Assembly (NCBI GenBank): GCA_964514585.1
Contig: CAZETU010000004.1
Location: 1 to 64,000 of the forward strand
Source of the DNA: Candidatus Woesearchaeota archaeon
GTDB lineage: Archaea > Nanobdellota > Nanobdellia > Pacearchaeales > GW2011-AR1
Direction of reading: 5' to 3'
Length of the DNA stretch: 64,000 bases
Shown here: positions 39,986 through 51,269 of the stretch, piece by piece
Layout of the letters: the number at the start of each line of letters is the position of its first letter
Numbering within the stretch: the first letter of the stretch is position 1
Position numbers and translations under genes: made by a program
Notes under the pieces: model-generated
What the model was told of the DNA's origin: nothing
The model's database searches: none
Seen by the model: only the letters and a program-made list of their open reading frames with translations

Positions 39986-40222
39986 TTATCTCAAAGAGAA
40001 AACTTCAGATTCAAAATCGAGATTTAATTCCTTGGCTAATTCTGCTTTAGGCTTCAAAACAACAAATTCAATTCCAGCAGATTCCAACTTTTCAACAGTC
40101 TCATCTCGAGTATCTTTAGCAATAAAAACGCCTTTCAATCCCTTCGGATTTTTCAAAGCTTGACGAACACCAAAACAAACATTCTTTTTTTCCATTCCTT
40201 CCCGAATTTCTTTTACGCTCAT
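39986..40222 (-). CDS. rpl30e: Divergent L30e/L7Ae-family ribosomal protein
   Basis: Canonical position between rpoA and nusA; FGVRQALK and VFIAKD motifs. Confidence 0.65.
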   Translation of the reverse strand: MSVKEIREGMEKKNVCFGVRQALKNPKGLKGVFIAKDTRDETVEKLESAGIEFVVLKPKAELAKELNLDFESEVFSLR

Positions 40223-43200
40223 ACTTTCTTCTCCTTTGTCTTCTCTTCTTTCTTAAGTTTCGATTGGACAGCCAATGGGCCAGTAACTTTAACCAACAAC
40301 CCAGGAAGACCCGTACCAACAGGAACCGGCTGATTCAAAATAACATTCTCAATCACCGACGCCAACTTATCCTTTCTACCAGTCTTAGTAGCCTGAACAA
40401 ACTGCTTATCTGGAGTCTCAAACGCAGCCCTTGCCAAAATCGAACTCTTGTCCCCAATAATACCCATTCGAGTAATACCCTTAACAGCACCAGAACCAGT
40501 CATAGTATCCGCGACAAGCATAGCGTGCTTGCCATCAATCGCAAGACCCTGAGAAACAATTACACCATTAATTTCATTAATAACTAATTGTCGAGCAGCC
40601 TCAATTCCCAAAACATCCGAAACCTCATAAATATCATTCGTAATAATCCTATCAGCATCGATACCCTTAAACTTCAGCAAATCCTTTAAATTTGAACCAG
40701 CCGTCAAAATCACATAATCCCTATCCCTCTTAACAACCAAAACCTGCGAAATCTTCTTAACACCAGTCAAAATAACTTCCTTAATTTTCTCCTTAGTTTT
40801 ATAAATCATCTTAAAATCTTCCTTAGACATATCAAGAGTAATTCCGTCAGACAACTTCTTAGCATCGAAACCCTTATCATTCAAAACCTCAACAGCCTTA
40901 TCTAAAGTTATGTGAGCCAATTTCAAAGATGCATTATCAACACCAATCTTAATCTTCTTAGAGCCAAAATCAATCCCAATCTCAGAAACAATTTCCTTCA
41001 ACTTAACTTCCTTAATCTTCTCAGCAACAACCCTAGCATCCTTCTCATTATTATGATCCTTATCCAAATAAATAACCATAGCTGGTGTCTTAGGTAACTT
41101 ACGAGCATCCAAAATTTCAATTATTCTCGGCAACCCCTGAGTAACCTGCATCTCTGCAACACCAGCAGCGTGAAACGTATTCAAAACCATCTGAGTCGAA
41201 GCTTCACCAAAACTCTGAGCAGTCACAACACCAATAGCTTCACCAGACGCAACCGGCATATTCTTATGTTTAGCAGAAACATCAATCCCATCAAGACCAT
41301 ACTTAAACTGAACAATATTATTAGAAGCATCCCTCACAGTACCGTCGTAAGCCATAACCAAATCCTGCAAAGAATTTGCCAACCTTCTATACAAATAACC
41401 AGACTTCGGCGTCCTAAGAGCTACATCCATCAGACCATCTCGACCAGTCATAGAACCAAAGAAAAATTCCTGAGCAGTCAAACCTTTCATCAAAGAACTA
41501 TAAATAAACCCTCTAGCCTTCGGCGACAAATCTCCCTTCTTGAAAAACGGCAATGTCCTATCGGTATACCCAAAATCAATTCTACGCCCATTCAATACTT
41601 GCTGCCCAACCGAACAGGCAATCTGAGTAATATTAAGCATACTACCCTTCGCCCCCGAACCAATCATCTTACTAGTCAAATTATCCTTAGGAAAACCTTC
41701 CTTAACAGCGTCACCAATCTCAGTTCGAGTCTCATTCAAAACCTGCAAAACCTTATTTTCCCTCGTCTCCTCAGAACTCTTACCCGGCAAGCATTCAATA
41801 CTGCCATCGTAATAACTATCAATAATTTTCTGAGACTTAGCCTCAGCAACTTCAATAATCTTAGCCGTCTTATTCTTAACTTCCTTAGGAACGTCTAAAT
41901 CAGTCATAGAAAGTGTAAACCCCGTCCTCGATAAAAAAGTCGTACCAATGGCAAAAACTCTTCTCAAAAGTTCAGTAACCTCACTTCGACTCATCTTAGT
42001 ATCAGCGATCCTTAAAGCGTCGCCACTACCTTCCTTAAATCCTTTAAAATCGACATTATCTCCAGCCATAACTTTAGGGATAACTTTATCAAAAACATCC
42101 TTTCCTGAATTCATTGCCTTAAAATTAGGAACCTCAACGCCCGCTTCATACATCAATTGCGAAGCGTCCTCCTTACTAAGTTCAGCCTCATTCAACATAA
42201 AATTCCCACTAACAGCATCCGCAACACAGCCTAAAAAATTCATATTATTCTTTGGCGAAAATAAATTATTATCAACATTCAACAAAACCTCTGCTTCAGC
42301 CCTAGCCTCTTCAGTCTGTGGAGCGTGAATATTCATCTCATCCCCATCAAAGTCCGCACCATAGGGACCACAAACAGCAGGATGAATTCTAAAAGTCCTA
42401 CATGGAAGAACCTTAACAAAATGAGCCATCAGCGACGCTCTATGCAAAGAAGGATGCCTATTAAACAAAACAATGTCTCCATCAATCAAATGCCTCTCAA
42501 CAACATAACCAGGCTCAATCTCCTCTTTCAATTCTTCCCTCAAATCATTAGTAATTCTTTTCCTCTTCCCATCAGGTCGAATAATATAATTAGCACCAGG
42601 ATATTCCGCCTTCATAATCAATTCCTTCAACTTCTTAATATTAAGCGATGTCACCCTCTCTGCAGCAGTCAAAATCTTTGCAACTTCAAAAGGAACACCA
42701 ACTTCATTTAGCCTCATATTAGGATCCGGAGAAATAACAGTACGAGCAGAAAAATTAACTCTCTTCCCAGCCAAATTCTTTCTAATTCGTCCTTCCTTAC
42801 CTTTAATTCTCTCAGTAATAGTCTTCAATGGCTGACCACTTCTATGCCTCGCTGGCGGAATCTTTGCAATTGAATTATCAAAGAAGGTCGTAATATGATA
42901 CTGCAATAAATCCCAAAGATCCTCGATAATAACCTCAGGCGCACCAGCATTCAAATTTTCCCAAAGCCTTTGATTAGACCGAATAATATCCGACAACTTA
43001 TGTGTCAAATCATCTTCACTTCTTTCACCAGATTCCAAAGTAATAGAAGGTCGAACCGTTACAGACGGAACAAGCAACAAAGTCAAAATCGCCCATTCAG
43101 GCCTCAAAGTCTCAGCATTAATTCCCAAAATCTTCAAATCGTCGTCGCTAACCTTAACCAATCTCTCCCTAATCTCAGAAGGGAAAAGTCTCCGCCTACC

Positions 43201-43659
43201 TGATCTAAAGGTAGTAGGTTTCTCCAACTTAACTTTCTCCTGAATAATACTACAATGAGGACATTTCTTTCCATCCTTAGCCTTCTTAATTCTATCAATC
43301 AAATTCTTACTCAAATCCTTCTCTTCTTTAATTAAAACCTTACCACAAGCCTCACAAGTTGACCTCAAAACCAAATCAATAATTGGCAGATACTTAATAT
43401 GAACAAGAGGTCGAGCTAATTCAATAACACCAGGATGACCAAGACATTCCTTCAATCGACCACCACAAGTTCTACACCGAACACCAGGGTCAATCGCACC
43501 AAGCCTCAAATCCATCAAACCACCATCAACCGGATAACCATCAACGTCATAAAGCTCCGGCGTCACAATCTTCGCAACACTCAACTTCTTAATCTGCTCA
43601 GGACTAAGTAAGTGAAAAGTCATCGCATCAATTTGTTTCTTAATTGGTTTCCTACTCAT
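40219..43659 (-). CDS. rpoA1: RNA polymerase largest subunit, A' and A'' fused (1146 aa)
   Basis: Clamp Zn sites, FNRHPSLHR, GADFDGDEMN, bridge helix, then in frame GEAIGVVTAQSFGEASTQMVLNTFHAAG and A'' C-terminal motifs. Confidence 0.95.
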   Translation of the reverse strand: MSRKPIKKQIDAMTFHLLSPEQIKKLSVAKIVTPELYDVDGYPVDGGLMDLRLGAIDPGVRCRTCGGRLKECLGHPGVIELARPLVHIKYLPIIDLVLRSTCEACGKVLIKEEKDLSKNLIDRIKKAKDGKKCPHCSIIQEKVKLEKPTTFRSGRRRLFPSEIRERLVKVSDDDLKILGINAETLRPEWAILTLLLVPSVTVRPSITLESGERSEDDLTHKLSDIIRSNQRLWENLNAGAPEVIIEDLWDLLQYHITTFFDNSIAKIPPARHRSGQPLKTITERIKGKEGRIRKNLAGKRVNFSARTVISPDPNMRLNEVGVPFEVAKILTAAERVTSLNIKKLKELIMKAEYPGANYIIRPDGKRKRITNDLREELKEEIEPGYVVERHLIDGDIVLFNRHPSLHRASLMAHFVKVLPCRTFRIHPAVCGPYGADFDGDEMNIHAPQTEEARAEAEVLLNVDNNLFSPKNNMNFLGCVADAVSGNFMLNEAELSKEDASQLMYEAGVEVPNFKAMNSGKDVFDKVIPKVMAGDNVDFKGFKEGSGDALRIADTKMSRSEVTELLRRVFAIGTTFLSRTGFTLSMTDLDVPKEVKNKTAKIIEVAEAKSQKIIDSYYDGSIECLPGKSSEETRENKVLQVLNETRTEIGDAVKEGFPKDNLTSKMIGSGAKGSMLNITQIACSVGQQVLNGRRIDFGYTDRTLPFFKKGDLSPKARGFIYSSLMKGLTAQEFFFGSMTGRDGLMDVALRTPKSGYLYRRLANSLQDLVMAYDGTVRDASNNIVQFKYGLDGIDVSAKHKNMPVASGEAIGVVTAQSFGEASTQMVLNTFHAAGVAEMQVTQGLPRIIEILDARKLPKTPAMVIYLDKDHNNEKDARVVAEKIKEVKLKEIVSEIGIDFGSKKIKIGVDNASLKLAHITLDKAVEVLNDKGFDAKKLSDGITLDMSKEDFKMIYKTKEKIKEVILTGVKKISQVLVVKRDRDYVILTAGSNLKDLLKFKGIDADRIITNDIYEVSDVLGIEAARQLVINEINGVIVSQGLAIDGKHAMLVADTMTGSGAVKGITRMGIIGDKSSILARAAFETPDKQFVQATKTGRKDKLASVIENVILNQPVPVGTGLPGLLVKVTGPLAVQSKLKKEEKTKEKKV

Positions 43660-43660
43660 T

Positions 43661-46600
43661 TTATTCGTACTTGTTCTTTAGCTCGAATTTAGTTAATAAA
43701 TGCAATCCCTGTAATTCCTCAACCAACAACTTGAAAGCATACGAAACCTCAATGGGTTCAATCTGATTTGAATGACAAAGGCTACAAACTTTCTTATTAT
43801 GAATCTGATCATCGATAACAACACTCCCACACTTCGAACAAATATTCAAAACAACCTTATCAGAATCGTAACGCTCCTTCAAAAGAAGAGACGCCCCATG
43901 CCCAACCAAAGCTTCCTGCTCCATTTCTCCAAGTCTCAAAGCTCCACCCCGACTCCTACCCTCGATAGGCTGCCTAGTCAACAAAGCAATCTTCCCCGAA
44001 GCTCGAGCGTGCATCTTATCCGCAACCATATACTTCAACTTCAAATAAAACATATTACCAATAAAAATCTTAACAGGCATTCGCTTCCCAGTAATCCCGT
44101 TATACATAACTTCCTTACCACTCGCTCTAAATCCTAACTTCTTCAAATTATCTTCAAGACTATCAATCGTCTCACCACTAAAACTAGAAGCATCAACAAT
44201 TCTTCCAGAAAGAGCAGCCAACTTACCAGCCAAAACATCCATCAAATAACCAACAGTCATACGCGATGGTATACCATGAGGATTAAACATAATGTCCGGT
44301 CGTATACCACTAACAGTAAACGGAATATCAGCCTCCTTAGCAATCATACCAACAATACCTTTCTGTCCATGAGGCACCGAAAACTTATCTCCAACTTCAG
44401 GAATTCTCAATTCTCGAGTTCTAACCTGAACAATCTTATTACCTTCTTTATCTTGAGTAATAAAAACAGCGTCGACAATACCAGTCTCTTCTTGCTTAAT
44501 AGCAGAAGAATTCTCCTTCTTTGTCTGAATAGAAATTTCCCTAGCCTCACTCAAAAATTTAGGAGGACTAATCTTGCCAATAACAACCTCACCCTCATTC
44601 AAAGAAGCCTCAGGATAAACAATACCATCATCTTCCAAAAACCTATAGCTCTCTTCCAATCTGTAACCAGAAACATCCTTGTCAGGAATCATAATCTCAT
44701 CACGAAGACCACCGGCATAGTTCAACTCAATAGAAGTATACGGCCTAAATCTAGAGCTTCTACCAAATCCCCTATCAACAGAACCACCATTCAAAACAGT
44801 AGCATCTTCCATATTATAACCCTCATAAGGCATAATCGCCAAAACAACATTCTGCCCAACAGGATGAACATTTAAAGTATCATAAACAAAACTTCTAACT
44901 AGGGGCTTCTGCGGATAATGCAAAAGAGAAACATCAGTATCAATTCTAACAGGAAAATTACCAGCATAAATTCCAAGGCCCTGTCTATAAGCTCTAGAAC
45001 CACCCTTAACCATACGCGCAGGAGGATCATGATTTCCAAAAGGAATCAAAGAAACCGAAACACCAAAAACATCAATATCATCAATCTCAAGATGAGTATG
45101 CTCCTCAGTCAAGCCATCTTCTTTCAAAGAAAGATAACAATCATCTTCCTCAGCAGCATCAAGATACTCCAAAATTCCCTGCCTAAACAATTCTTCCCAA
45201 GACAAATTTCCTTCCTTAACCAATTCCAAATGTTCTTCCTTTAATCTAGAAACGCCATTCTCAACGATAATCAAAGGTCGAATAACTCTACCAACTTCAG
45301 AACTTATAAAAACAGTATTCAAAAACTTATCAAACCGAACAGACATTTCAACCGGTAACCTATTTTCTCTCCTAGCTTCTCTAACCAACTTCGTAAAATC
45401 TTCAGCCTCATCAATAGAACCAACAAATCGTCCATTATAAAAAACATCAACATTCCCTTCGTCACTAATCATTCCAGATTCCTTCAAAACCTTCAAAACA
45501 TCATCATGCTCCATCGTCGTCCTCGTAGTAATTCTAGCAAGCAATGCCAAATTTTTCCTAAGACCAATCTCAGTTCCTTCTGGAGTTTCAATCGGACAGA
45601 ATCGACCATAATGAGTTGGATGAACAGTCCTAGCAGCCAAATTTTCCTGCTCACCAGGCAAAGTCGAAGTCACTCTCTGTAATTGAGACATAATCGCAAA
45701 AGAATTATTCTTATCCATATTCTGAGTCACACCATTTCTCTCACCAATCCACGAACCGGTCGCAATCGCCGATTCAACCCTGTGAGTAAACAAAGTCGAC
45801 TTAGCAATAGTCTTAATAGAATAAAACTTACGTCTCTTCACAGTCTTCTGCAAAGTATGCTGAACCTCTCTAAGCAAAATATTAATATTAACCCTAAACA
45901 AATCAGACAACAAATCCCCACTCAATCTAACTCTCTTATTAGCATAATGGTCCTTATCAGTAAAAGCATCACCAGGATTTTCCCTCGCAATATAAAACTG
46001 CTTAATAAATTTACAAAGCGTCTTAGCTTTCTCAAGACGAGCCGCCTTGTCTAAACCAATATGAGGTAAAAAGTAAGAATCCATTCTCTGCTTAACCCTA
46101 TCAAGCATCTCCTTGTTCGTACCCTGCAAAGAACTCTTCTCCGCAATCCACATCAAAGCATCATTCACATTAGCAATTTCAGCATATTCATAAAGATTAA
46201 CGGCCAAACTATCCGTCTGCTTCCCAATCAACTGCGCAATCTCAGCGTCACTAGTCAAGCCCAAAGCCTTCAAAAGAACAATAGCCGGAATATCTCTAAA
46301 CCTCGAAAACGAAGCCTCCAAAATTCCCTCAGGACTCTCAACTAAATTAACTGGAATCTTATAAGCCCCTCGCTGCGAGAACAGCCTCAAAACCAATCTA
46401 TTCTTAGTCTTCTGCCACTCAACAAAAGTTTGATTCGAAGCCAAATCCTCAGCCATAACCATAACTCTCTCATTACCATTAATCAAAAAATAGCCACCAT
46501 GATCTTTAGGATCAATATAATTCTTAATCAAATCCTCCTCATTCATTCCATCAAGATTACAAGCCCGACTCTTAACCATAATCGGAATCCTACCAAGCTG

Positions 46601-46915
46601 AACTTCCTCAGTCTCAACCTGACCAGCATAATTAATCGCCATCTCAATCCAAATCGGAGCAGAATAAGTCAAATTTCTCAAACGAGATTCAGCAGGAGTA
46701 ATCGGCCGACTAGAACCATCACTCTCGATAATATTCGGCTTACCAACCCTAACCTTACCAAGTTTAATCTCAAAATCCTCATTAGGCAAACCGTCAGACA
46801 ACTCCGTCACAATTTCCTGCATCTTATTTTCAACAAAATCATTAAAAGACTTAATATTAGACTCAACAAGTGAATGGTTCTTCAAAAACTCTTTAACTAA
46901 AACATGCTCAGCCAT
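43661..46915 (-). CDS. rpoB: RNA polymerase subunit B (single chain)
   Basis: GGYFLING, CPIETPEG, GYNMEDA, GDKF..PHGQKG, LKYMVADKMHAR, GGALRLGEME. Confidence 0.96.
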   Translation of the reverse strand: MAEHVLVKEFLKNHSLVESNIKSFNDFVENKMQEIVTELSDGLPNEDFEIKLGKVRVGKPNIIESDGSSRPITPAESRLRNLTYSAPIWIEMAINYAGQVETEEVQLGRIPIMVKSRACNLDGMNEEDLIKNYIDPKDHGGYFLINGNERVMVMAEDLASNQTFVEWQKTKNRLVLRLFSQRGAYKIPVNLVESPEGILEASFSRFRDIPAIVLLKALGLTSDAEIAQLIGKQTDSLAVNLYEYAEIANVNDALMWIAEKSSLQGTNKEMLDRVKQRMDSYFLPHIGLDKAARLEKAKTLCKFIKQFYIARENPGDAFTDKDHYANKRVRLSGDLLSDLFRVNINILLREVQHTLQKTVKRRKFYSIKTIAKSTLFTHRVESAIATGSWIGERNGVTQNMDKNNSFAIMSQLQRVTSTLPGEQENLAARTVHPTHYGRFCPIETPEGTEIGLRKNLALLARITTRTTMEHDDVLKVLKESGMISDEGNVDVFYNGRFVGSIDEAEDFTKLVREARRENRLPVEMSVRFDKFLNTVFISSEVGRVIRPLIIVENGVSRLKEEHLELVKEGNLSWEELFRQGILEYLDAAEEDDCYLSLKEDGLTEEHTHLEIDDIDVFGVSVSLIPFGNHDPPARMVKGGSRAYRQGLGIYAGNFPVRIDTDVSLLHYPQKPLVRSFVYDTLNVHPVGQNVVLAIMPYEGYNMEDATVLNGGSVDRGFGRSSRFRPYTSIELNYAGGLRDEIMIPDKDVSGYRLEESYRFLEDDGIVYPEASLNEGEVVIGKISPPKFLSEAREISIQTKKENSSAIKQEETGIVDAVFITQDKEGNKIVQVRTRELRIPEVGDKFSVPHGQKGIVGMIAKEADIPFTVSGIRPDIMFNPHGIPSRMTVGYLMDVLAGKLAALSGRIVDASSFSGETIDSLEDNLKKLGFRASGKEVMYNGITGKRMPVKIFIGNMFYLKLKYMVADKMHARASGKIALLTRQPIEGRSRGGALRLGEMEQEALVGHGASLLLKERYDSDKVVLNICSKCGSVVIDDQIHNKKVCSLCHSNQIEPIEVSYAFKLLVEELQGLHLLTKFELKNKYE

Positions 46916-46916
46916 C

Positions 46917-47120
46917 TTAAATCACAACCCTATAATAAACTTCGGCCAAATCACCCTTTCGTTCAATTTTAACAACGTCTCCAGTCTCACAACCTTCAGG
47001 AAGAGCAGCGTCCTTCTTAGAAATTTTCGGCAACTGCGCCAAAGCAATATTAAACTGAAGCAGAACCTTCTCTACCTCATTGGGATTCAGCTTCGTGTGC
47101 TTTGGTTGGAGTATATGCAT
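46917..47120 (-). CDS. rpoH: RNA polymerase subunit H (Rpo5)
   Basis: HILQPKH, LPKISKKD, GDVVKIER, YYRVV. Confidence 0.93.
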   Translation of the reverse strand: MHILQPKHTKLNPNEVEKVLLQFNIALAQLPKISKKDAALPEGCETGDVVKIERKGDLAEVYYRVVI

Positions 47121-47278
47121 CTTACTTTTAGAATATTACCTTTAGATAAAAAAAAGACCAAAAATGGCTTTAAAAACTTTTGCTTTTTGTTATTATAAAG
47201 TAGTTCGAGACAAAATTGCCCTCCCACAAAGATACATTACAATAATACTTTTAAATCACATTAATATAATTCATTAAA

Positions 47279-48196
47279 ATGATTAACAGACAAAGAACCA
47301 TCAAAAAACCATTTAAGCTTTCAGGAATAGAAGCACTTGGTGGAAAATCTGTATATGTTTATTTTGAGAAAGCTCCAGTAGACAATGGAATTAAGTTTAT
47401 AACTCCCTCTGGATACATTCCTGCATCATTAGATTGCGTTAAATCGAAAACAGCTTTTTTAGATCTTGCACGAACATTATCCCTAAGCAATGGAAGAAAT
47501 GATATTCTAGTGCCAGAACATTTACTTGGGATCGTCTTTGGAATGGAGCTAGATAATGCAAATATAATCTTAGAAACAGAAGAATCAAGAAGTTATTCTG
47601 CTTTAAAAGGAATATTGGGGTCTTCTAATTCTGATGTTGTACCATATCTCGGAGAAGCTCTATATGATCACTTAGAAAATAATTTAGAAGAACAAGAAAC
47701 CCCTAGAAAAAATTTATTTCTCGAACACAGAATAGAAAGTGATAGATTATCCATAGAACCAACAGATAGAAAGGGAATAATTATAGACATAGAAACTGAC
47801 TATAAATTAAGAAGTGGAGAAAGAGTGATTCAATCATATAAGGGGGAAATAACACCCGAACTAGTAAAAGAAATTTCATTAGCCAGAGCCTATTGCAGAG
47901 TTCCACACTGGTCCCCAAAAACTTTAACAAAATTTCTGAGTCAGTTCTTCTATCTTTCACAAGGCTTAGGGAATGGGAGCAATAAAGATAATATTTTTTA
48001 TCCAGAAAAAACCGCCAATGGTTGGCATGCCCAAGAAAGAGTGGAGGCCGAAATAGTCAAACATTCAATTTTAGACAAACTGGGAGAAATAGCATTACTA
48101 TCAGGAAGATTATCTAGAGTAAAAATAACATCTCGTGGAGCAAGTCATAAACACACAATGGGGTTTCTTCAAAAATATCAAGACAAATTTAGATAA
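47279..48196 (+). CDS. LpxC-like Zn-dependent deacetylase
   Basis: QRTIKKP..LSG, PEHLL, EISLARAY, VKHSILDKLG, ASH align with LpxC QRTLK, VEHL, EISRARTF, RHKMLD, SGH. Confidence 0.75.
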   Translation: MINRQRTIKKPFKLSGIEALGGKSVYVYFEKAPVDNGIKFITPSGYIPASLDCVKSKTAFLDLARTLSLSNGRNDILVPEHLLGIVFGMELDNANIILETEESRSYSALKGILGSSNSDVVPYLGEALYDHLENNLEEQETPRKNLFLEHRIESDRLSIEPTDRKGIIIDIETDYKLRSGERVIQSYKGEITPELVKEISLARAYCRVPHWSPKTLTKFLSQFFYLSQGLGNGSNKDNIFYPEKTANGWHAQERVEAEIVKHSILDKLGEIALLSGRLSRVKITSRGASHKHTMGFLQKYQDKFR

Positions 48197-48301
48197 AAAA
48201 TAGTCCGAGGGAATTAAAGAGTCTTTATAACTCCTTAGAAATTATTTACAATTTCGGCCGAGCTTCTTTGAAGCGACGGTTGTTCAAAGACCCGAGAAAA
48301 A

Positions 48302-48376
48302 TGGCCCCGAGGGGATTTGAACCCCCGACACCTGGATTAAAAGTCCAGTGCTCTAACCAGGCTGAGCTACGGAGCC
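48302..48376 (-). tRNA. tRNA-Lys(TTT)
   Basis: GGCTCCG/CGGGGCC acceptor, CTGGA-CT-TTT-AA-TCCAG, TTCAAAT loop. Confidence 0.94.
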
Positions 48377-48452
48377 ATTAAATTACTGAGAAAATTTAAC
48401 TTTAAAAACTTGTGGGATTAAAGCACTGACACCTCAATCTTAACTTTAAAAA

Positions 48453-49556
48453 CTATTTATTCATATCAAAATATTTAGCCAACTTCGGACCATGTTGACC
48501 CTGATAATGAGAGCCCTTTCCCTTCTCTCCATATAAAACCTCTGGGAGATCTTTCATACGATAAAACTTGAAACTCCCTATCCTTTGTCCATCCGTCAAT
48601 AAAAAAGGCTGGCCAAAATTCCTAACCTCAAGAGTTGCTTGCGCTCTAAAATTAGGATCAAAAAACCCTGCATAATGAACACGAACTTCTCCAGCATCCG
48701 TTTCGATATCAACCATTTCCGAACAAAGATTTGCAGGGATGCTAATAATCTCCTTACTAGAAAGAATATAGAAAGAATTAGAATTAACAATAAGCCCCTT
48801 ACCCAAACCCTTAGATAAATAGACTTTATCAAAATACTCTGAAAAGGGAAGATCTCTTTTAGAAAGATCGACAGGAGGAGCATTTTCCTTAGAAACAAAC
48901 CCAGGAAACCTTTCATCCAAATCTAAAGTTAAAGAAAATATTCCGTTAAAAAGCCCTTTACCTTCACTCAAAAGACATTCAGTATCATTGTTTGACTCAA
49001 ACAATAAACCATAATTTTTATTAATTTTTTTCAAACAATCTTCATCAAGACAACAAGTGTTAGAGTCAAAAAATCTAAGCTGATTAAGACAATCCCCTTT
49101 GCGAACAATAATATCAAAAGACCTAGGATATATTTCAACCCACAACTTCCCACTATAACCATAAGGTATCTTATCAAAAGAAGTTCCATTTTCAGCTATT
49201 AATCTAACATGAACATCAATTCTACCAATAGAACTTTTAGGATTAACTCTCCCAGAAATTCCCGGAGGCAATTTCAAATATTCTTGCAACTCAAAAACAT
49301 AAACACAATTTTTATGCAAAAATCCATTCTTACTCAAATCAACGTCATAAGAAGAATTATTTTTCAAAAACTCTTCAAAATTTCCATTAGAAGAAATAGA
49401 AGAAAAAGGCAAACAATAACCCATCTCACCTAACCTCAAGTCCAAAGAAGAAGGTTGTATTTGATTTTCGTTTACAGCCTCCTTTGAACAAATCAACCCT
49501 CTTTCAATTAATTTCTTAATACCCTTATCGGAATAAACGCCCCCTTCTTCAATCAT
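48453..49556 (-). CDS. dcd: dCTP deaminase, long two-domain form
   Basis: QIQPSSLDLRLG, NPKSSIGRIDV, RVHYAGFFDP, SHYQGQ. Confidence 0.85.
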   Translation of the reverse strand: MIEEGGVYSDKGIKKLIERGLICSKEAVNENQIQPSSLDLRLGEMGYCLPFSSISSNGNFEEFLKNNSSYDVDLSKNGFLHKNCVYVFELQEYLKLPPGISGRVNPKSSIGRIDVHVRLIAENGTSFDKIPYGYSGKLWVEIYPRSFDIIVRKGDCLNQLRFFDSNTCCLDEDCLKKINKNYGLLFESNNDTECLLSEGKGLFNGIFSLTLDLDERFPGFVSKENAPPVDLSKRDLPFSEYFDKVYLSKGLGKGLIVNSNSFYILSSKEIISIPANLCSEMVDIETDAGEVRVHYAGFFDPNFRAQATLEVRNFGQPFLLTDGQRIGSFKFYRMKDLPEVLYGEKGKGSHYQGQHGPKLAKYFDMNK

Positions 49557-49637
49557 ACAAAAAAATGATTAATCCCATTTATATAAATTATTGTGATTAG
49601 TTAAGCTATAAATAAAATTAAAAATTAGCCCACTCTA

Positions 49638-49721
49638 CTAAATATTACTTCCACCGCTACCAAAAGCCCTGTTACCCAGAACACTATCACTAAGCTCGCC
49701 GACAACCGACAACTCAATCAC
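49638..49721 (-). pseudogene. Stranded dUTPase 3'-end remnant
   Basis: Translates VIELSVVGELSDSVLGNRAFGSGGSNI*, matching the intact dut end ETVDELSDSVRGEAAFGSG*SNI*. Confidence 0.8.
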
Positions 49722-49807
49722 TCAAAATCATAACTAACAAAAAATTATTCATCTACATATTGTTACAATAAGGTAAACTATAAATAACAACACTGCCTCA
49801 ACAACTT

Positions 49808-50266
49808 ATGGAACAATACAACTTCCAATACTGCCCAAAAATAATAATATTCTCAAAAGACAAATCAAAAGTACTCTTATGCAAAAGAAAAGGAGAAAAC
49901 GACTACGACGGAACATTTGGGTTCCCGGGAGGAAAAATGGAAACAACCGACAACTCAATCATCGAAGGACTAGCAAGAGAGAAAAACGAAGAACTAAGCC
50001 CATCCTTCAAAATCAAAATCTTAAAAACATTCACAAACAACATCCTATTCAAAAAGAAAAACGGGAAATCCATGATTCTGCCATACTACCTAGCAATACA
50101 TGAAAACGGAGAGGTAAAAATAAATGAAGAATATTCAGAATACAAATGGGTCCAAATAAAAGATTTAGAAGAATTCGGCCCCAGAATGCCAAACATCCCT
50201 GAAGTTACAGAAAAAATGAAAAAACTATTAACAATCTCAAAAGAACACGACTTCGAAATAATCTAA
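49808..50266 (+). CDS. NUDIX hydrolase
   Basis: FPGGKMETTDNSIIEGLAREKNEE Nudix box. Confidence 0.88.
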   Translation: MEQYNFQYCPKIIIFSKDKSKVLLCKRKGENDYDGTFGFPGGKMETTDNSIIEGLAREKNEELSPSFKIKILKTFTNNILFKKKNGKSMILPYYLAIHENGEVKINEEYSEYKWVQIKDLEEFGPRMPNIPEVTEKMKKLLTISKEHDFEII

Positions 50267-50312
50267 ACCCAAAACAATAAACAAAATTAAATAACTCTAA
50301 TTAAATATTACT

Positions 50313-50951
50313 TCAACCACTTCCAAAAGCCGCTTCTCCTCGAACAGAATCTGACAATTCATCTACAGTCTCAATATCCACCATTGCAACCGGCGCAATC
50401 ACAACTTGAGCAACTTGATCTCCAGTTCTAATCACAAAATCCTCATCACTTGTATTCAAGAAAACAACCCCATATTCTCCAGTATAAGTATACTCGATTA
50501 CTCCCCCAAGAATACAAATCCCCCTCTTATATGCCAAACCACTCTTCCCCCGAATCGAAGCGAAATAACCCTCAGGCAATTCCATCGCAATCCCCGTAGA
50601 AATCAACTGTCTTTTTCCAGCCGGCACAACATAATCTTCACAAGAATGCAAATCTAAAGCAGCATCACCAGGATGTCCATAACTAGGAATGATAGCATTC
50701 TCCTTCAATTTTTTAATCTTCACTTTAACCGCCCCCTCGTCAATCAACTCAAACCGCTTAACCCTTCGACCATCCTCAAAAATCTTATCCCCACAAAACT
50801 CATCCAACAACCTAACCCAAGTCACGCCATCACCGTAAAGAGCCTTATACACAACTAACATCTGATCCGTATTATCACAATTCCGCGCAACATCAACAAT
50901 CTCATATTCGCCCCCCTTAAAATGCCGATACCGCTCTCCAACCTCAACCAT
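50313..50951 (-). CDS. dut: DUF1653-dUTPase fusion protein
   Basis: N-terminal YRHFKGGEY...VVYKALYG; trimeric dUTPase motifs AALDL, GKSG, GGVIEYTYTG, AQVVI, RG..AFGSG; start at ATG 50951. Confidence 0.88.
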   Translation of the reverse strand: MVEVGERYRHFKGGEYEIVDVARNCDNTDQMLVVYKALYGDGVTWVRLLDEFCGDKIFEDGRRVKRFELIDEGAVKVKIKKLKENAIIPSYGHPGDAALDLHSCEDYVVPAGKRQLISTGIAMELPEGYFASIRGKSGLAYKRGICILGGVIEYTYTGEYGVVFLNTSDEDFVIRTGDQVAQVVIAPVAMVDIETVDELSDSVRGEAAFGSG

Positions 50952-51007
50952 AAAAAACAAAACAACTAACACTTTATAAAAATTATTACACTCTAATCTC
51001 CACTTCT

Positions 51008-51235
51008 TCAAACCGAACTCTCATCAATCAACTCAAACCGTTTAACCCTCCGTCCATCATCAAAAACTTTATCTCCACAAAACTCATCAAGCGACCTGTC
51101 CCAAGTCCCACCCTCGCCATAAAGCGCCTTATACTTAACTAACATCTGACCTGCATTATCACAATTCGGCGCAACATCAATAATCTCATACTCGCCACCC
51201 TTAAAATGCCGATATCTCTCTCCAGCCTCAACCAT
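51008..51235 (-). CDS. Stand-alone DUF1653 protein
   Basis: MVEAGERYRHFKGGEY..., near-identical to the N-domain of the dut fusion. Confidence 0.8.
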   Translation of the reverse strand: MVEAGERYRHFKGGEYEIIDVAPNCDNAGQMLVKYKALYGEGGTWDRSLDEFCGDKVFDDGRRVKRFELIDESSV

Positions 51236-51269
51236 AAAAAACAAAACCCAAAATACTTTATAAAAATTA

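What the first reader, a model, noticed from the sequence alone, without database searches (positions are those of the whole stretch)
47279..48196. Orphan LpxC-like deacetylase in an archaeon
Seen: equivalents of LpxC E78/H79 (PEH), H238 and D242 (KHSILD) and H265 (ASH) are present, while the K239 position is Ser. No lpxA/B/D lies nearby. The gene is AT-rich and abuts the 3' side of tRNA-Lys. Established: LpxC commits UDP-3-O-acyl-GlcNAc to lipid A, which archaea do not make. Inference: an acquired enzyme with a new substrate (nucleotide-sugar or surface glycan deacetylation), or one acting on bacterial metabolites.
Basis: partly seen in the sequence, partly recalled or inferred. Interest (0 to 1): 0.7.

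Follow-up and report, generated by a model that had tools for sequence, protein, structure and literature searches.

The report
Orphan LpxC-fold amidase in DPANN archaeon
A tiny symbiotic-type archaeon with no lipid A pathway keeps, under selection, a true structural relative of the bacterial lipid A enzyme LpxC; it belongs to a small archaeal-only branch with an intact zinc centre but changed substrate-binding residues, so it probably deacetylates some other, still unknown molecule.

Summary
ORF 47279-48196 (+), 305 aa, passes Pfam LpxC (69.5 bits, cut-off 27). Its AlphaFold model (pLDDT 92) superposes on solved LpxC structures (Z about 30, 254-264 residues). E78, H79, H238, D242 and H265 equivalents are present and invariant in its clade.

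It is not an ordinary LpxC:
- It fails the NCBIfam lpxC equivalog (35.7 vs 187 bits).
- T191, H19, K239 and K262 are replaced; D246 is Glu here and Ala in most of the clade.
- LpxA, LpxB, LpxD, LpxK, ACP and FabZ were not found in the 1.04-Mb genome (about 90% complete).

It belongs to a well-supported clade of about 50-60 sequence clusters. Every context and named record I saw for this clade is a Woese-/Pace-/Nanoarchaeota (DPANN) archaeon, with no conserved neighbour gene.

In this lineage it is a single-gene insertion into the conserved tRNA-Lys/rpoH gap. A species 84% identical has it in the same place, with dN/dS 0.20.

Most likely it is an accessory cytoplasmic zinc deacetylase acting on a non-lipid-A substrate, possibly a lipid-linked amino sugar. 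The substrate is unknown.

The scan has noted the same kind of gene in another DPANN genome, and this same stretch twice more.

The parts
47279..48196 (+). LpxC-fold zinc amidase gene (305 aa) of the DPANN-specific clade I. Key residues: E80, H81, H262, D266, H290. S263 stands at the K239 position, A204 at T191, L20 at H19.
   Evidence: ORF. Pfam 69.5 bits. AF2 pLDDT 92.1. Foldseek E 1.7e-21. VIA-align Z 30. Residue table. dN/dS 0.20 against the ortholog in L054.
47248..47256 (+). TATA-like box CTTTTAAAT centred about 27 nt before the ATG. This suggests an archaeal promoter and a leaderless mRNA (inference from sequence only).
   Evidence: Sequence. The same sequence stands upstream of the ortholog in L054.
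47216..48200 (.). Approximate extent of the inserted DNA (gene plus its promoter) relative to same-genus genomes that lack it.
   Evidence: Comparison of tRNA-Lys/rpoH intergenic regions in relatives.
47121..47215 (-). Native rpoH promoter/leader, conserved in same-genus genomes. This is the rpoH-side border of the insertion.
   Evidence: Alignment by eye of intergenic regions from 9 relatives.
46917..47120 (-). rpoH (Rpb5 C-terminal domain, 67 aa), followed by unsplit rpoB and rpoA. These are the archaeal anchor genes.
   Evidence: Pfam.
48197..48300 (-). About 100-nt unit between tRNA-Lys and the gene's stop codon, shared with L054 and G027. It ends (48200-48215) in a degenerate copy of the tRNA-Lys 3' end, which looks like an att remnant.
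   Evidence: No Rfam family. Fold z-score -1.97.
48301..48377 (-). tRNA-Lys(UUU). Its 3' end faces the 3' end of the gene.
   Evidence: ARAGORN. Rfam tRNA 71 bits.

Best explanation
The gene encodes an active, cytoplasmic, zinc-dependent amidase (N-deacetylase) with the complete two-domain LpxC fold. It belongs to a clade found only in DPANN archaea (Woese-/Pace-/Nanoarchaeota).

Shown:
- The fold.
- The zinc ligands (H81, H262, D266) and the general base/acid pair (E80, H290), invariant across the clade.
- Purifying selection.
- A stand-alone gene with no conserved partner.
- None of the other lipid A or acyl-ACP genes searched (LpxA/B/D/K, ACP, FabA/Z) found in the genome.
- Arrival as a single-gene insertion in the tRNA-Lys/rpoH gap, probably from another DPANN archaeon.

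Inferred mechanism: it uses the LpxC chemistry, in which zinc-bound water is activated by Glu, His protonates the leaving amine, and acetate is released. The substrate is different. The diphosphate-binding lysines (K239, K262), T191 and H19 are replaced, and D246 is Glu here (Ala in most of the clade). The region that forms the hydrophobic passage (Insert II) is kept and is 11-15 residues longer.

My favoured substrate class, held with low confidence, is an amphipathic N-acetyl amino sugar made by the archaeon itself. An example is a lipid-linked GlcNAc intermediate of its N-glycosylation pathway. That would make this an accessory surface-glycan or glycolipid modification.
For: Fold:
- AF2 pLDDT 92.1, pTM 0.91.
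- All top Foldseek PDB hits are LpxC, E 1.7e-21.
- VIA-align Z 28-30, rmsd 2.1-2.6 A over 253-264 residues. The next unrelated fold scores Z 6.

Catalytic set: E80, H81, H262, D266 and H290 are invariant in 40 members and kept in 57-58 of 58 clade members.

Changed substrate residues in the clade:
- T191 -> P/A/S
- K239 -> T/S in 47 of 58
- K262 -> F/R/G
- H19 -> Y/F/L
- D246 -> A/E
The roles of these residues in E. coli LpxC are taken from PMC13333357 and PMC10254716.

Insert II region: median 62 residues against 46.5 in classic LpxC, with hydrophobic fraction 0.44 against 0.41.

Equivalog models fail: TIGR00325 scores 35.7 against 187.25.

No pathway: LpxA, LpxB, LpxD, LpxK, ACP and FabA/Z were not found. 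The only hexapeptide protein is Vat/CatB-like. LpxA and LpxB were also not found in five other DPANN genomes that carry LpxC-like genes.

Clade:
- SH-aLRT 100 in IQ-TREE LG+C20; 98 in FastTree.
- All 8 named loci are Woesearchaeota or Nanoarchaeia MAGs.
- Neighbour genes were named for five clade I loci; all are archaeal.
- None of 16 clade I loci shares a conserved neighbour.

Selection: dN/dS 0.20 against an ortholog at the same site.

Insertion.

An endogenous lipid-linked GlcNAc is plausible. AglH-type GT4 and AglB/STT3 are present, and no PIG-L deacetylase was found.
Against: - No substrate evidence exists, either biochemical or from gene context. The gene has no conserved neighbour.
- I had no model coordinates, so I could not check whether the hydrophobic passage is open. 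In the alignment, bulky residues (F/I/Y) stand at the G210 position, and the F212 position is charged. This could close or reshape the passage, but the alignment is uncertain in this region.
- The uracil-stacking residue F161 is kept as an invariant Tyr, and D160 is often Asp/Asn. A nucleotide-sugar substrate is therefore not excluded.
- N-glycosylation genes are near-universal in the relatives, whereas this gene occurs in only about 1-2% of sampled genomes. Any link to that pathway would be an optional extra.
- The genome is only about 90% complete.
Confidence: 0.7

Rival explanations
1. It is a soluble nucleotide-sugar deacetylase (UDP-GlcNAc or a derivative to UDP-GlcN) feeding an unusual surface glycan, with no lipid part in the substrate.
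For: The F161 equivalent, which stacks on uracil in E. coli LpxC, is an invariant Tyr. D160 is often Asp/Asn. The K262 position is often aromatic or Arg and could still stack. The genome has glycosylation genes and no PIG-L.
Against: The phosphate-binding K239 and K262 are mostly lost. The hydrophobic Insert II is retained and enlarged, which a soluble substrate would not need. There is no linkage to glycan genes in 16 loci.
Confidence: 0.15
2. It is a genuine UDP-3-O-acyl-GlcNAc deacetylase that acts on lipid A precursors taken from, or exposed by, a Gram-negative bacterial partner.
For: It has the full LpxC fold with Insert II and an intact catalytic core. DPANN cells depend on partners. Earlier unchecked scan notes report bacterial outer-membrane-type genes in this genome.
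Against: T191, H19, K239 and K262 are changed, and D246 is Glu here (Ala in most of the clade). TIGR00325 scores 35.7 against 187. No LpxA, LpxD, LpxB or LpxK was found to use the product. The protein has no signal peptide; its N-terminus aligns with residue 1 of LpxC. My check of the Slam family found only a sub-threshold hit, 20.1 bits against a cut-off of 22.
Confidence: 0.07
3. It is a decaying remnant or a non-catalytic pseudoenzyme.
For: T191 and, in most of the clade, D246 are missing. The gene is rare among relatives.
Against: dN/dS is 0.20 over dS 0.41. The frame is intact. Five catalytic residues are invariant across a deep clade. The model is confident.
Confidence: 0.04
4. It is an assembly chimera or a bacterial contaminant binned into an archaeal genome.
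For: None beyond the family's bacterial reputation.
Against: The gene lies between archaeal rpoH-rpoB-rpoA and tRNA-Lys on a long contig. An independent assembly, L054, has the same junctions on both sides. Every clade I locus whose neighbour genes were named has archaeal neighbours, and all 8 organism-named loci are archaeal MAGs. Codon usage is typical of the genome.
Confidence: 0.01

Closest known systems
Bacterial LpxC, UDP-3-O-acyl-N-acetylglucosamine deacetylase (EC 3.5.1.108; PF03331, TIGR00325; e.g. E. coli 4MDT, P. aeruginosa 7CIC, A. aeolicus 1P42)
   Same: Whole two-domain fold (Z 28-30, 253-264 residues aligned). Zinc ligands H79, H238 and D242. E78 and H265. R190. An aromatic residue at F161. 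The Insert II region is present.
   Different: T191, H19, K239 and K262 are replaced, as is the MDGS motif; D246 is Glu here (Ala in most of the clade). Insert II is 11-15 residues longer. An extra helix of about 16 residues (104-113) sits in domain I. It fails the equivalog cut-offs. It is not in a lipid A operon, unlike the control P0062, which sits in BamA-Skp-LpxD-LpxC-FabZ-LpxA-LpxI-LpxB. The host is an archaeon in which no lipid A genes were found.
Second DPANN LpxC-like group ('clade II' here: G045, G050, G224, G326, G412, P0097)
   Same: Archaeal, stand-alone, with no lpx partners. The catalytic core is intact. T191 and H19 are also replaced.
   Different: It is a separate, supported clade (95-97). 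It keeps K239 in 13 of 13 members. It scores higher against the LpxC models (Pfam 118-138 bits; TIGR00325 58-105).
Shortened LpxC-like amidases of Asgard archaea and Methanopyrus
   Same: LpxC-derived zinc site in archaea that lack lipid A.
   Different: Those are reported to have lost the acyl tunnel and to have conserved partners or coenzyme A gene contexts. This clade keeps and enlarges Insert II and has no conserved partner.
PIG-L/LmbE-family sugar de-N-acetylases (e.g. MshB, BshB, GlcNAc-PI deacetylase)
   Same: Possible functional analogy only: zinc-dependent removal of the N-acetyl group from a GlcNAc conjugate (own knowledge).
   Different: Unrelated fold. Only PF03331 matched above its cut-off in the Pfam scan of this protein, and no PIG-L gene was found in this genome.

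Membership tests
LpxC (PF03331 superfamily level) | Sequence match to Pfam LpxC above the gathering score, over the full length | tested here: met
   69.5 bits against 27, profile positions 1-265 of 268
LpxC (PF03331 superfamily level) | Two-domain LpxC fold | tested here: met
   AF2 pLDDT 92. Foldseek E 1.7e-21, TM 0.75-0.80. VIA-align Z 30, rmsd 2.2 A, 254-264 residues aligned.
LpxC (PF03331 superfamily level) | Zinc ligands H79, H238, D242 and catalytic E78, H265 | tested here: met
   H81, H262, D266, E80 and H290, invariant in 40 members
True LpxC enzyme (EC 3.5.1.108, equivalog) | Score above the NCBIfam equivalog cut-off | tested here: not met
   TIGR00325 35.7 against 187.25; NF009667 54.4 against 465; NF009666 23.6 against 423
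True LpxC enzyme (EC 3.5.1.108, equivalog) | Thr191 (oxyanion stabilisation) and the H265-D246 dyad | tested here: not met
   A204 stands at T191 (P/A/S in the clade). E270 stands at D246 (Ala in 36 of 58 members).
True LpxC enzyme (EC 3.5.1.108, equivalog) | UDP-diphosphate contacts K239, K262 and K143, plus H19 | tested here: not met
   S263, G287, Asp and L20 in the query. The clade has T/S, F/R/G and Y/F/L at these positions. Roles are from PMC10254716.
True LpxC enzyme (EC 3.5.1.108, equivalog) | Hydrophobic acyl passage formed by Insert II | tested here: inconclusive
   The region is present, longer (58 against 47 residues) and hydrophobic, and it is structurally aligned. I had no coordinates to test whether the tunnel is open. 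Residues at the 210 and 212 positions differ.
True LpxC enzyme (EC 3.5.1.108, equivalog) | Lipid A pathway partners in the genome (LpxA, LpxD, LpxB, LpxK) and an acyl-ACP supply | tested here: not met
   None found in a genome 89.65% complete. The only hexapeptide protein is Vat/CatB-like.
True LpxC enzyme (EC 3.5.1.108, equivalog) | Deacetylation of UDP-3-O-acyl-GlcNAc | not testable with these tools
   Needs an enzyme assay or complementation.
DPANN LpxC-like clade I (unnamed) | Falls inside the supported clade and scores at least 250 bits against the clade profile | tested here: met
   336.6 bits against the A2 profile. Clade support is 98 (FastTree) and 100 (IQ-TREE).

The most novel reading that the evidence does not exclude
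The enzyme works on the lipid A precursor, or another acylated amino sugar, of a Gram-negative bacterial partner. In that case a DPANN archaeon would use a remodelled LpxC to scavenge from, or interfere with, bacterial outer-membrane biogenesis. A milder novel reading, about 0.2 probable, is that the enlarged Insert II binds an isoprenoid chain and the enzyme de-N-acetylates a lipid-linked GlcNAc of the archaeon. That would be the first non-lipid-A reaction assigned to a full-length LpxC fold.
Probability: 0.05. Interest if true: 0.85.

Novelty: new variant of a known kind. Interest (0 to 1): 0.45.

Why it matters
LpxC is known for one reaction, the committed step of lipid A synthesis, and it is a major antibiotic target. 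A full-length LpxC fold conserved under selection in archaea with no lipid A pathway detected shows that the fold has at least one other job. NCBI's annotation pipeline names these archaeal proteins 'UDP-3-O-acyl-N-acetylglucosamine deacetylase', which is probably wrong. Finding the substrate would give a new reaction for the fold. It could also shed light on the envelope or partner biology of uncultured DPANN archaea. The locus further shows a tRNA-Lys-linked slot where single accessory genes come and go in very small genomes.

Tried and rejected
- Gene context as a guide to function. I clustered the neighbours of 16 clade I loci and found no family shared beyond local synteny.
- att-type flanking repeats. 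A 19-nt direct repeat brackets the gene. Its first copy lies inside the conserved rpoH leader, and the second is weaker in the ortholog, so it is probably chance. A degenerate tRNA 3'-end copy abuts the stop codon, but I found no matching copy on the rpoH side.
- The 100-nt unit as a known RNA. No Rfam family matched, and the fold z-score is -1.97.
- Defence or phage cargo. There were no PADLOC or PHROGs hits. No clade I gene turned up in IMG/VR by pattern scan. The phage records hold only classic Acinetobacter-type lpxC.
- LpxD-like, ACP or PIG-L partners, a lead from an earlier scan note. None was found in this genome.
- Slam outer-membrane gene, also a lead from earlier notes. I found only a sub-threshold hit of 20.1 bits, so I did not use it.
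- ESM Atlas look-alikes were all LpxC clusters and added nothing.
- Literature. Six full-text searches, four of them aimed at archaeal LpxC, found no paper describing archaeal or DPANN LpxC homologues.
- The search for related loci with the 40-sequence alignment failed because no stretch was conserved enough. A 12-sequence subset worked.

Full report
1. WHAT IS THERE

The ORF at 47279-48196 (+) encodes 305 aa. It matches Pfam LpxC end to end: 69.5 bits against a cut-off of 27, profile positions 1-265 of 268. It falls far below all three NCBIfam lpxC equivalog cut-offs; TIGR00325, for example, scores 35.7 against 187.25. The best solved relatives by sequence are P. aeruginosa LpxC chains, at E 3e-10.

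- E80/H81 in VPEH
- H262, S263 and D266 in KHSILD
- H290 in GASH

2. FOLD

An AlphaFold2 model was built on a 40-sequence alignment of the subfamily. It has mean pLDDT 92.1 and pTM 0.91.
- Every significant Foldseek hit in the PDB is LpxC. The best is 7cic_B, E 1.7e-21, TM 0.75-0.80.
- VIA-align gives Z 28-30 and rmsd 2.1-2.6 A over 253-264 residues, for A. aeolicus, P. aeruginosa and E. coli LpxC alike.
- The next unrelated fold scores Z 6.

3. ORGANISM AND CONTIG

The gene lies between rpoH-rpoB-rpoA (archaeal; both large subunits unsplit) and tRNA-Lys. Beyond the tRNA sits a nucleotide-metabolism block: DCD, NUDIX, DUF1653-dUTPase, NrdG, NrdD, NrdR and SHMT.

The genome is 1.04 Mb in 18 contigs and 89.65% complete. 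Genomes with 83-91% identical RpoB are labelled Pacearchaeota, Woesearchaeota or Nanoarchaeota MAGs.

An independent assembly, ENA contig L054, carries an 84%-identical ortholog between the same rpoH and tRNA-Lys, with the same junction sequences. The contig is therefore not chimeric at this point.

4. A DISTINCT ARCHAEAL CLADE

A profile search of 1.84 billion representative proteins found 41 clusters at E <= 1e-30 and 118 at E <= 1e-10. The top 50-60 or so are full-length, single-stretch matches. Classic LpxC sequences follow from about 1e-13. Against the subfamily profile there is a clear score gap: at least 250 bits for the subfamily and at most 210 for everything else.

Trees of 145 rows (FastTree) and 78 rows (IQ-TREE, LG+C20) give three groups:

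| Group | Support (FastTree / IQ-TREE) | Content |
|---|---|---|
| Clade I | 98 / 100 | The query's group |
| Clade II | 97 / 95 | A second DPANN group |
| The rest | not applicable | Classic LpxC |

Checks on what the groups are:
- A classic-group member (P0062) sits in a BamA-Skp-LpxD-LpxC-FabZ-LpxA-LpxI-LpxB-MsbA operon. This is a positive control that the rest are real bacterial LpxC.
- A clade II member (P0097) sits among archaeal ribosomal protein genes.
- For clade I, all 8 loci with organism names are Woesearchaeota or Nanoarchaeia MAGs. One member is HLC65788.1, named 'UDP-3-O-acyl-N-acetylglucosamine deacetylase' by its source.
- The four other clade I contexts read with Pfam are archaeal, with TBP, TFIIE, L15e, S15, FEN1 and ATP-dependent DNA ligase.
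- Across 16 clade I loci, no neighbour gene is conserved beyond local synteny.

The gene is rare:
- 4 of 401 sampled genomes of the phylum have clade I, and 5 more have a weaker LpxC-like match; four of those five fall in clade II and one on a long branch among classic LpxC.
- 2 of 24 same-order genomes have clade II.
- Only one very weak hit turned up in 36 same-genus genomes.

Two of the four clade I genomes in the phylum sample, G391 and G451, are unpublished. The following rest partly on them: the count '4 of 401', rows L005 and L006 in the trees and the context analysis, and their share.

5. WHAT IS KEPT AND WHAT IS CHANGED

This is the comparison against E. coli LpxC. Residue roles are taken from PMC13333357 and PMC10254716.

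Kept in all three groups:
- E78, H79, H238, D242, H265 and R190
- An aromatic residue at F161, which is an invariant Tyr in clade I

Changed in clade I:

| E. coli residue | Clade I | Query |
|---|---|---|
| T191 | P/A/S | A204 |
| K239 | T/S in 47 of 58 | S263 |
| K262 | F/R/G | G287 |
| H19 | Y/F/L | L20 |
| G17 | E/D | E18 |
| D246 | Ala in 36 of 58 | E270 |
| D105 (MDGS motif) | lost | gap in the alignment |

F192 becomes Tyr in 42 of 58 members. I suggest, as inference only, that this Tyr could replace T191 as the hydrogen-bond donor to the oxyanion.

The Insert II region, which forms the acyl passage in LpxC, is not lost. It measures 58 residues in the query and a median of 62 in clade I, against 46.5 in classic LpxC. 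Its hydrophobic fraction is 0.44 against 0.41. It carries a clade-specific P-x-F-G-x-G-H-G-F motif. Domain I has an extra helix at 104-113.

I could not get the model coordinates, so whether the passage is open remains untested.

6. NO PATHWAY

The following were not found in the genome: LpxA C-terminal domain, LpxB, LpxD and LpxK, ACP and FabA/FabZ. The only hexapeptide-repeat protein is Vat/CatB-like. LpxA and LpxB were also not found in five other DPANN genomes that carry clade I or clade II genes, at 77-96% completeness. The classic substrate therefore cannot be made by the cell.

The genome does have AglH-type GT4 and AglB/STT3, which are also present in 9-10 of 11 relatives sampled. It has no PIG-L, and two CE4 hits just above the cut-off. 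A lipid-linked GlcNAc therefore exists in this cell as one candidate substrate, but nothing links the gene to it.

7. HOW IT GOT THERE

All 23 same-genus loci that hold rpoH-rpoB carry rpoH directly upstream of rpoB. ARAGORN found tRNA-Lys(UUU) next to rpoH in 15 of them. In 12 of those the tRNA-to-rpoH gap is 115-375 nt. In this genome the gap is 1181 nt and contains the LpxC-like gene on the opposite strand.

The borders of the insertion are as follows:
- On the rpoH side, 95 nt are the conserved rpoH promoter/leader.
- On the tRNA side, about 100 nt are shared with G027.
- The insert is therefore about 47216-48200, which is just the gene plus its promoter.
- A TATA-like CTTTTAAAT lies about 27 nt before the ATG.

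Three relatives carry other, unrelated ORFs in the same gap. Eight of 24 related loci carry one to three extra copies of the last 17 nt or so of tRNA-Lys, spaced 66-144 nt apart. That is the usual scar of tRNA-targeted integration. One degenerate copy abuts the stop codon of the gene here and in L054. The slot therefore looks like a recurrent integration site.

The nearest homologues (47%, 40% and 38% identity) are all clade I, so the donor was probably another DPANN archaeon. Composition is nearly native: GC at the 20th percentile, GC3 at the 4th and codon usage at the 28th. Against the L054 ortholog, dS is 0.41, dN is 0.083 and dN/dS is 0.20. The gene is under purifying selection.

8. READING

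Shown:
- It is an intact LpxC-fold zinc amidase, kept under selection.
- It belongs to a DPANN-only clade.
- It stands alone, without a conserved partner.
- It was inserted at a tRNA-linked hot spot.
- The genome shows no lipid A pathway among the families searched.

Inferred:
- It uses LpxC chemistry on a different substrate.
- That substrate still has a hydrophobic part, because Insert II is retained and enlarged.
- That substrate lacks the UDP-diphosphate contacts, because K239 and K262 are lost.

My favoured guess is an endogenous amphipathic N-acetyl amino sugar, such as a lipid-linked GlcNAc. A plain nucleotide sugar is the main rival. The bacterial lipid A precursor is unlikely but not excluded.

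9. NOVELTY

I found no paper on archaeal or DPANN LpxC homologues in six full-text searches, four of them aimed at that question. Public annotation simply calls them LpxC.

The scan itself has noted the same kind of gene in another DPANN genome (e1-3529200). It has also noted tunnel-less LpxC-like genes in Asgard archaea and Methanopyrus. This same stretch was noted twice more.

I rate it a new variant of a known kind. Interest is moderate because the function is still open.

Noticed in passing
L043:34-380; L042:846-1040; L040:897-1019; L045:3176-3304; L048:3038-3122; L034:1088-1170; L051:3906-4068; L054:1485-1604: In same-genus genomes, tRNA-Lys(UUU) is accompanied by 1-3 extra copies of its last 17 nt or so (AAATCCCC[TC][CT]GGGGCCA) at 66-144 nt spacing. 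L043 has four copies. They look like stacked att remnants of serial integrations, or like a small tRNA-end-bearing repeat family.
   Followed up: partly
window 48197-48300: A unit of about 100 nt between tRNA-Lys and the LpxC-like stop codon is conserved in L054 and in G027 (L040:1020-1125). It matches no Rfam family, and its predicted fold is only mildly stable (z -1.97).
   Followed up: partly
L036:334-1193; L039:380-1189; L051:3020-3685: Three relatives carry other ORFs (93-269 aa, no Pfam family) in the same tRNA-Lys/rpoH gap. The gap is therefore a variable single-gene slot.
   Followed up: partly
L002, L003, L009-L012, L067: A second, separate DPANN LpxC-like clade keeps Lys239 but also lacks Thr191 and His19. 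It too stands alone in archaeal contexts, with no LpxA or LpxB in the genomes checked.
   Followed up: partly
L004:927-1790 (-), genome G003, same genus: A 287-aa ORF has a sub-threshold LpxC match (24.5 bits, C-terminal domain only) but keeps an H-K-x-x-D motif and a G-H-K motif. It may be a third, still more divergent LpxC-like protein.
   Followed up: partly
L019:7370-7999 and L059:2926-3600: A GGDEF-domain gene ends 2 nt before the LpxC-like gene in two related archaeal contigs. GGDEF proteins are unusual in archaea.
   Followed up: no
L017:2024-7980: A Nanoarchaeia MAG carries bacterial-type MEP pathway genes (Dxs, Dxr, IspD/F fusion, GHMP kinase) and a dienelactone-hydrolase-type esterase directly upstream of its LpxC-like gene.
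   Followed up: no
L020:9020-9949: The 309-aa ORF downstream of a clade I gene has a weak MaoC-like (hot-dog dehydratase) hit of 19 bits, below the cut-off. This recalls bacterial LpxC-FabZ fusions, but the hit is too weak to use.
   Followed up: no
window 40219-46915 (-): Both large RNA polymerase subunits are unsplit: RpoA is 1146 aa with Rpb1 domains 1-5, and RpoB is 1084 aa.
   Followed up: no
window 48453-51244: A two-domain DCD-type dCTP deaminase of 367 aa is patchy in the genus (6 of 41 genomes). Next to it lie a NUDIX gene, a DUF1653-dUTPase fusion and a second free-standing DUF1653 ORF (51008-51244).
   Followed up: no
G000 contig C1:155000-165000: A glycan gene neighbourhood holds a Vat/CatB-like hexapeptide acetyltransferase, AglB (STT3, 919-aa frame) and an AglH-type GT4 within about 7 kb.
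   Followed up: no
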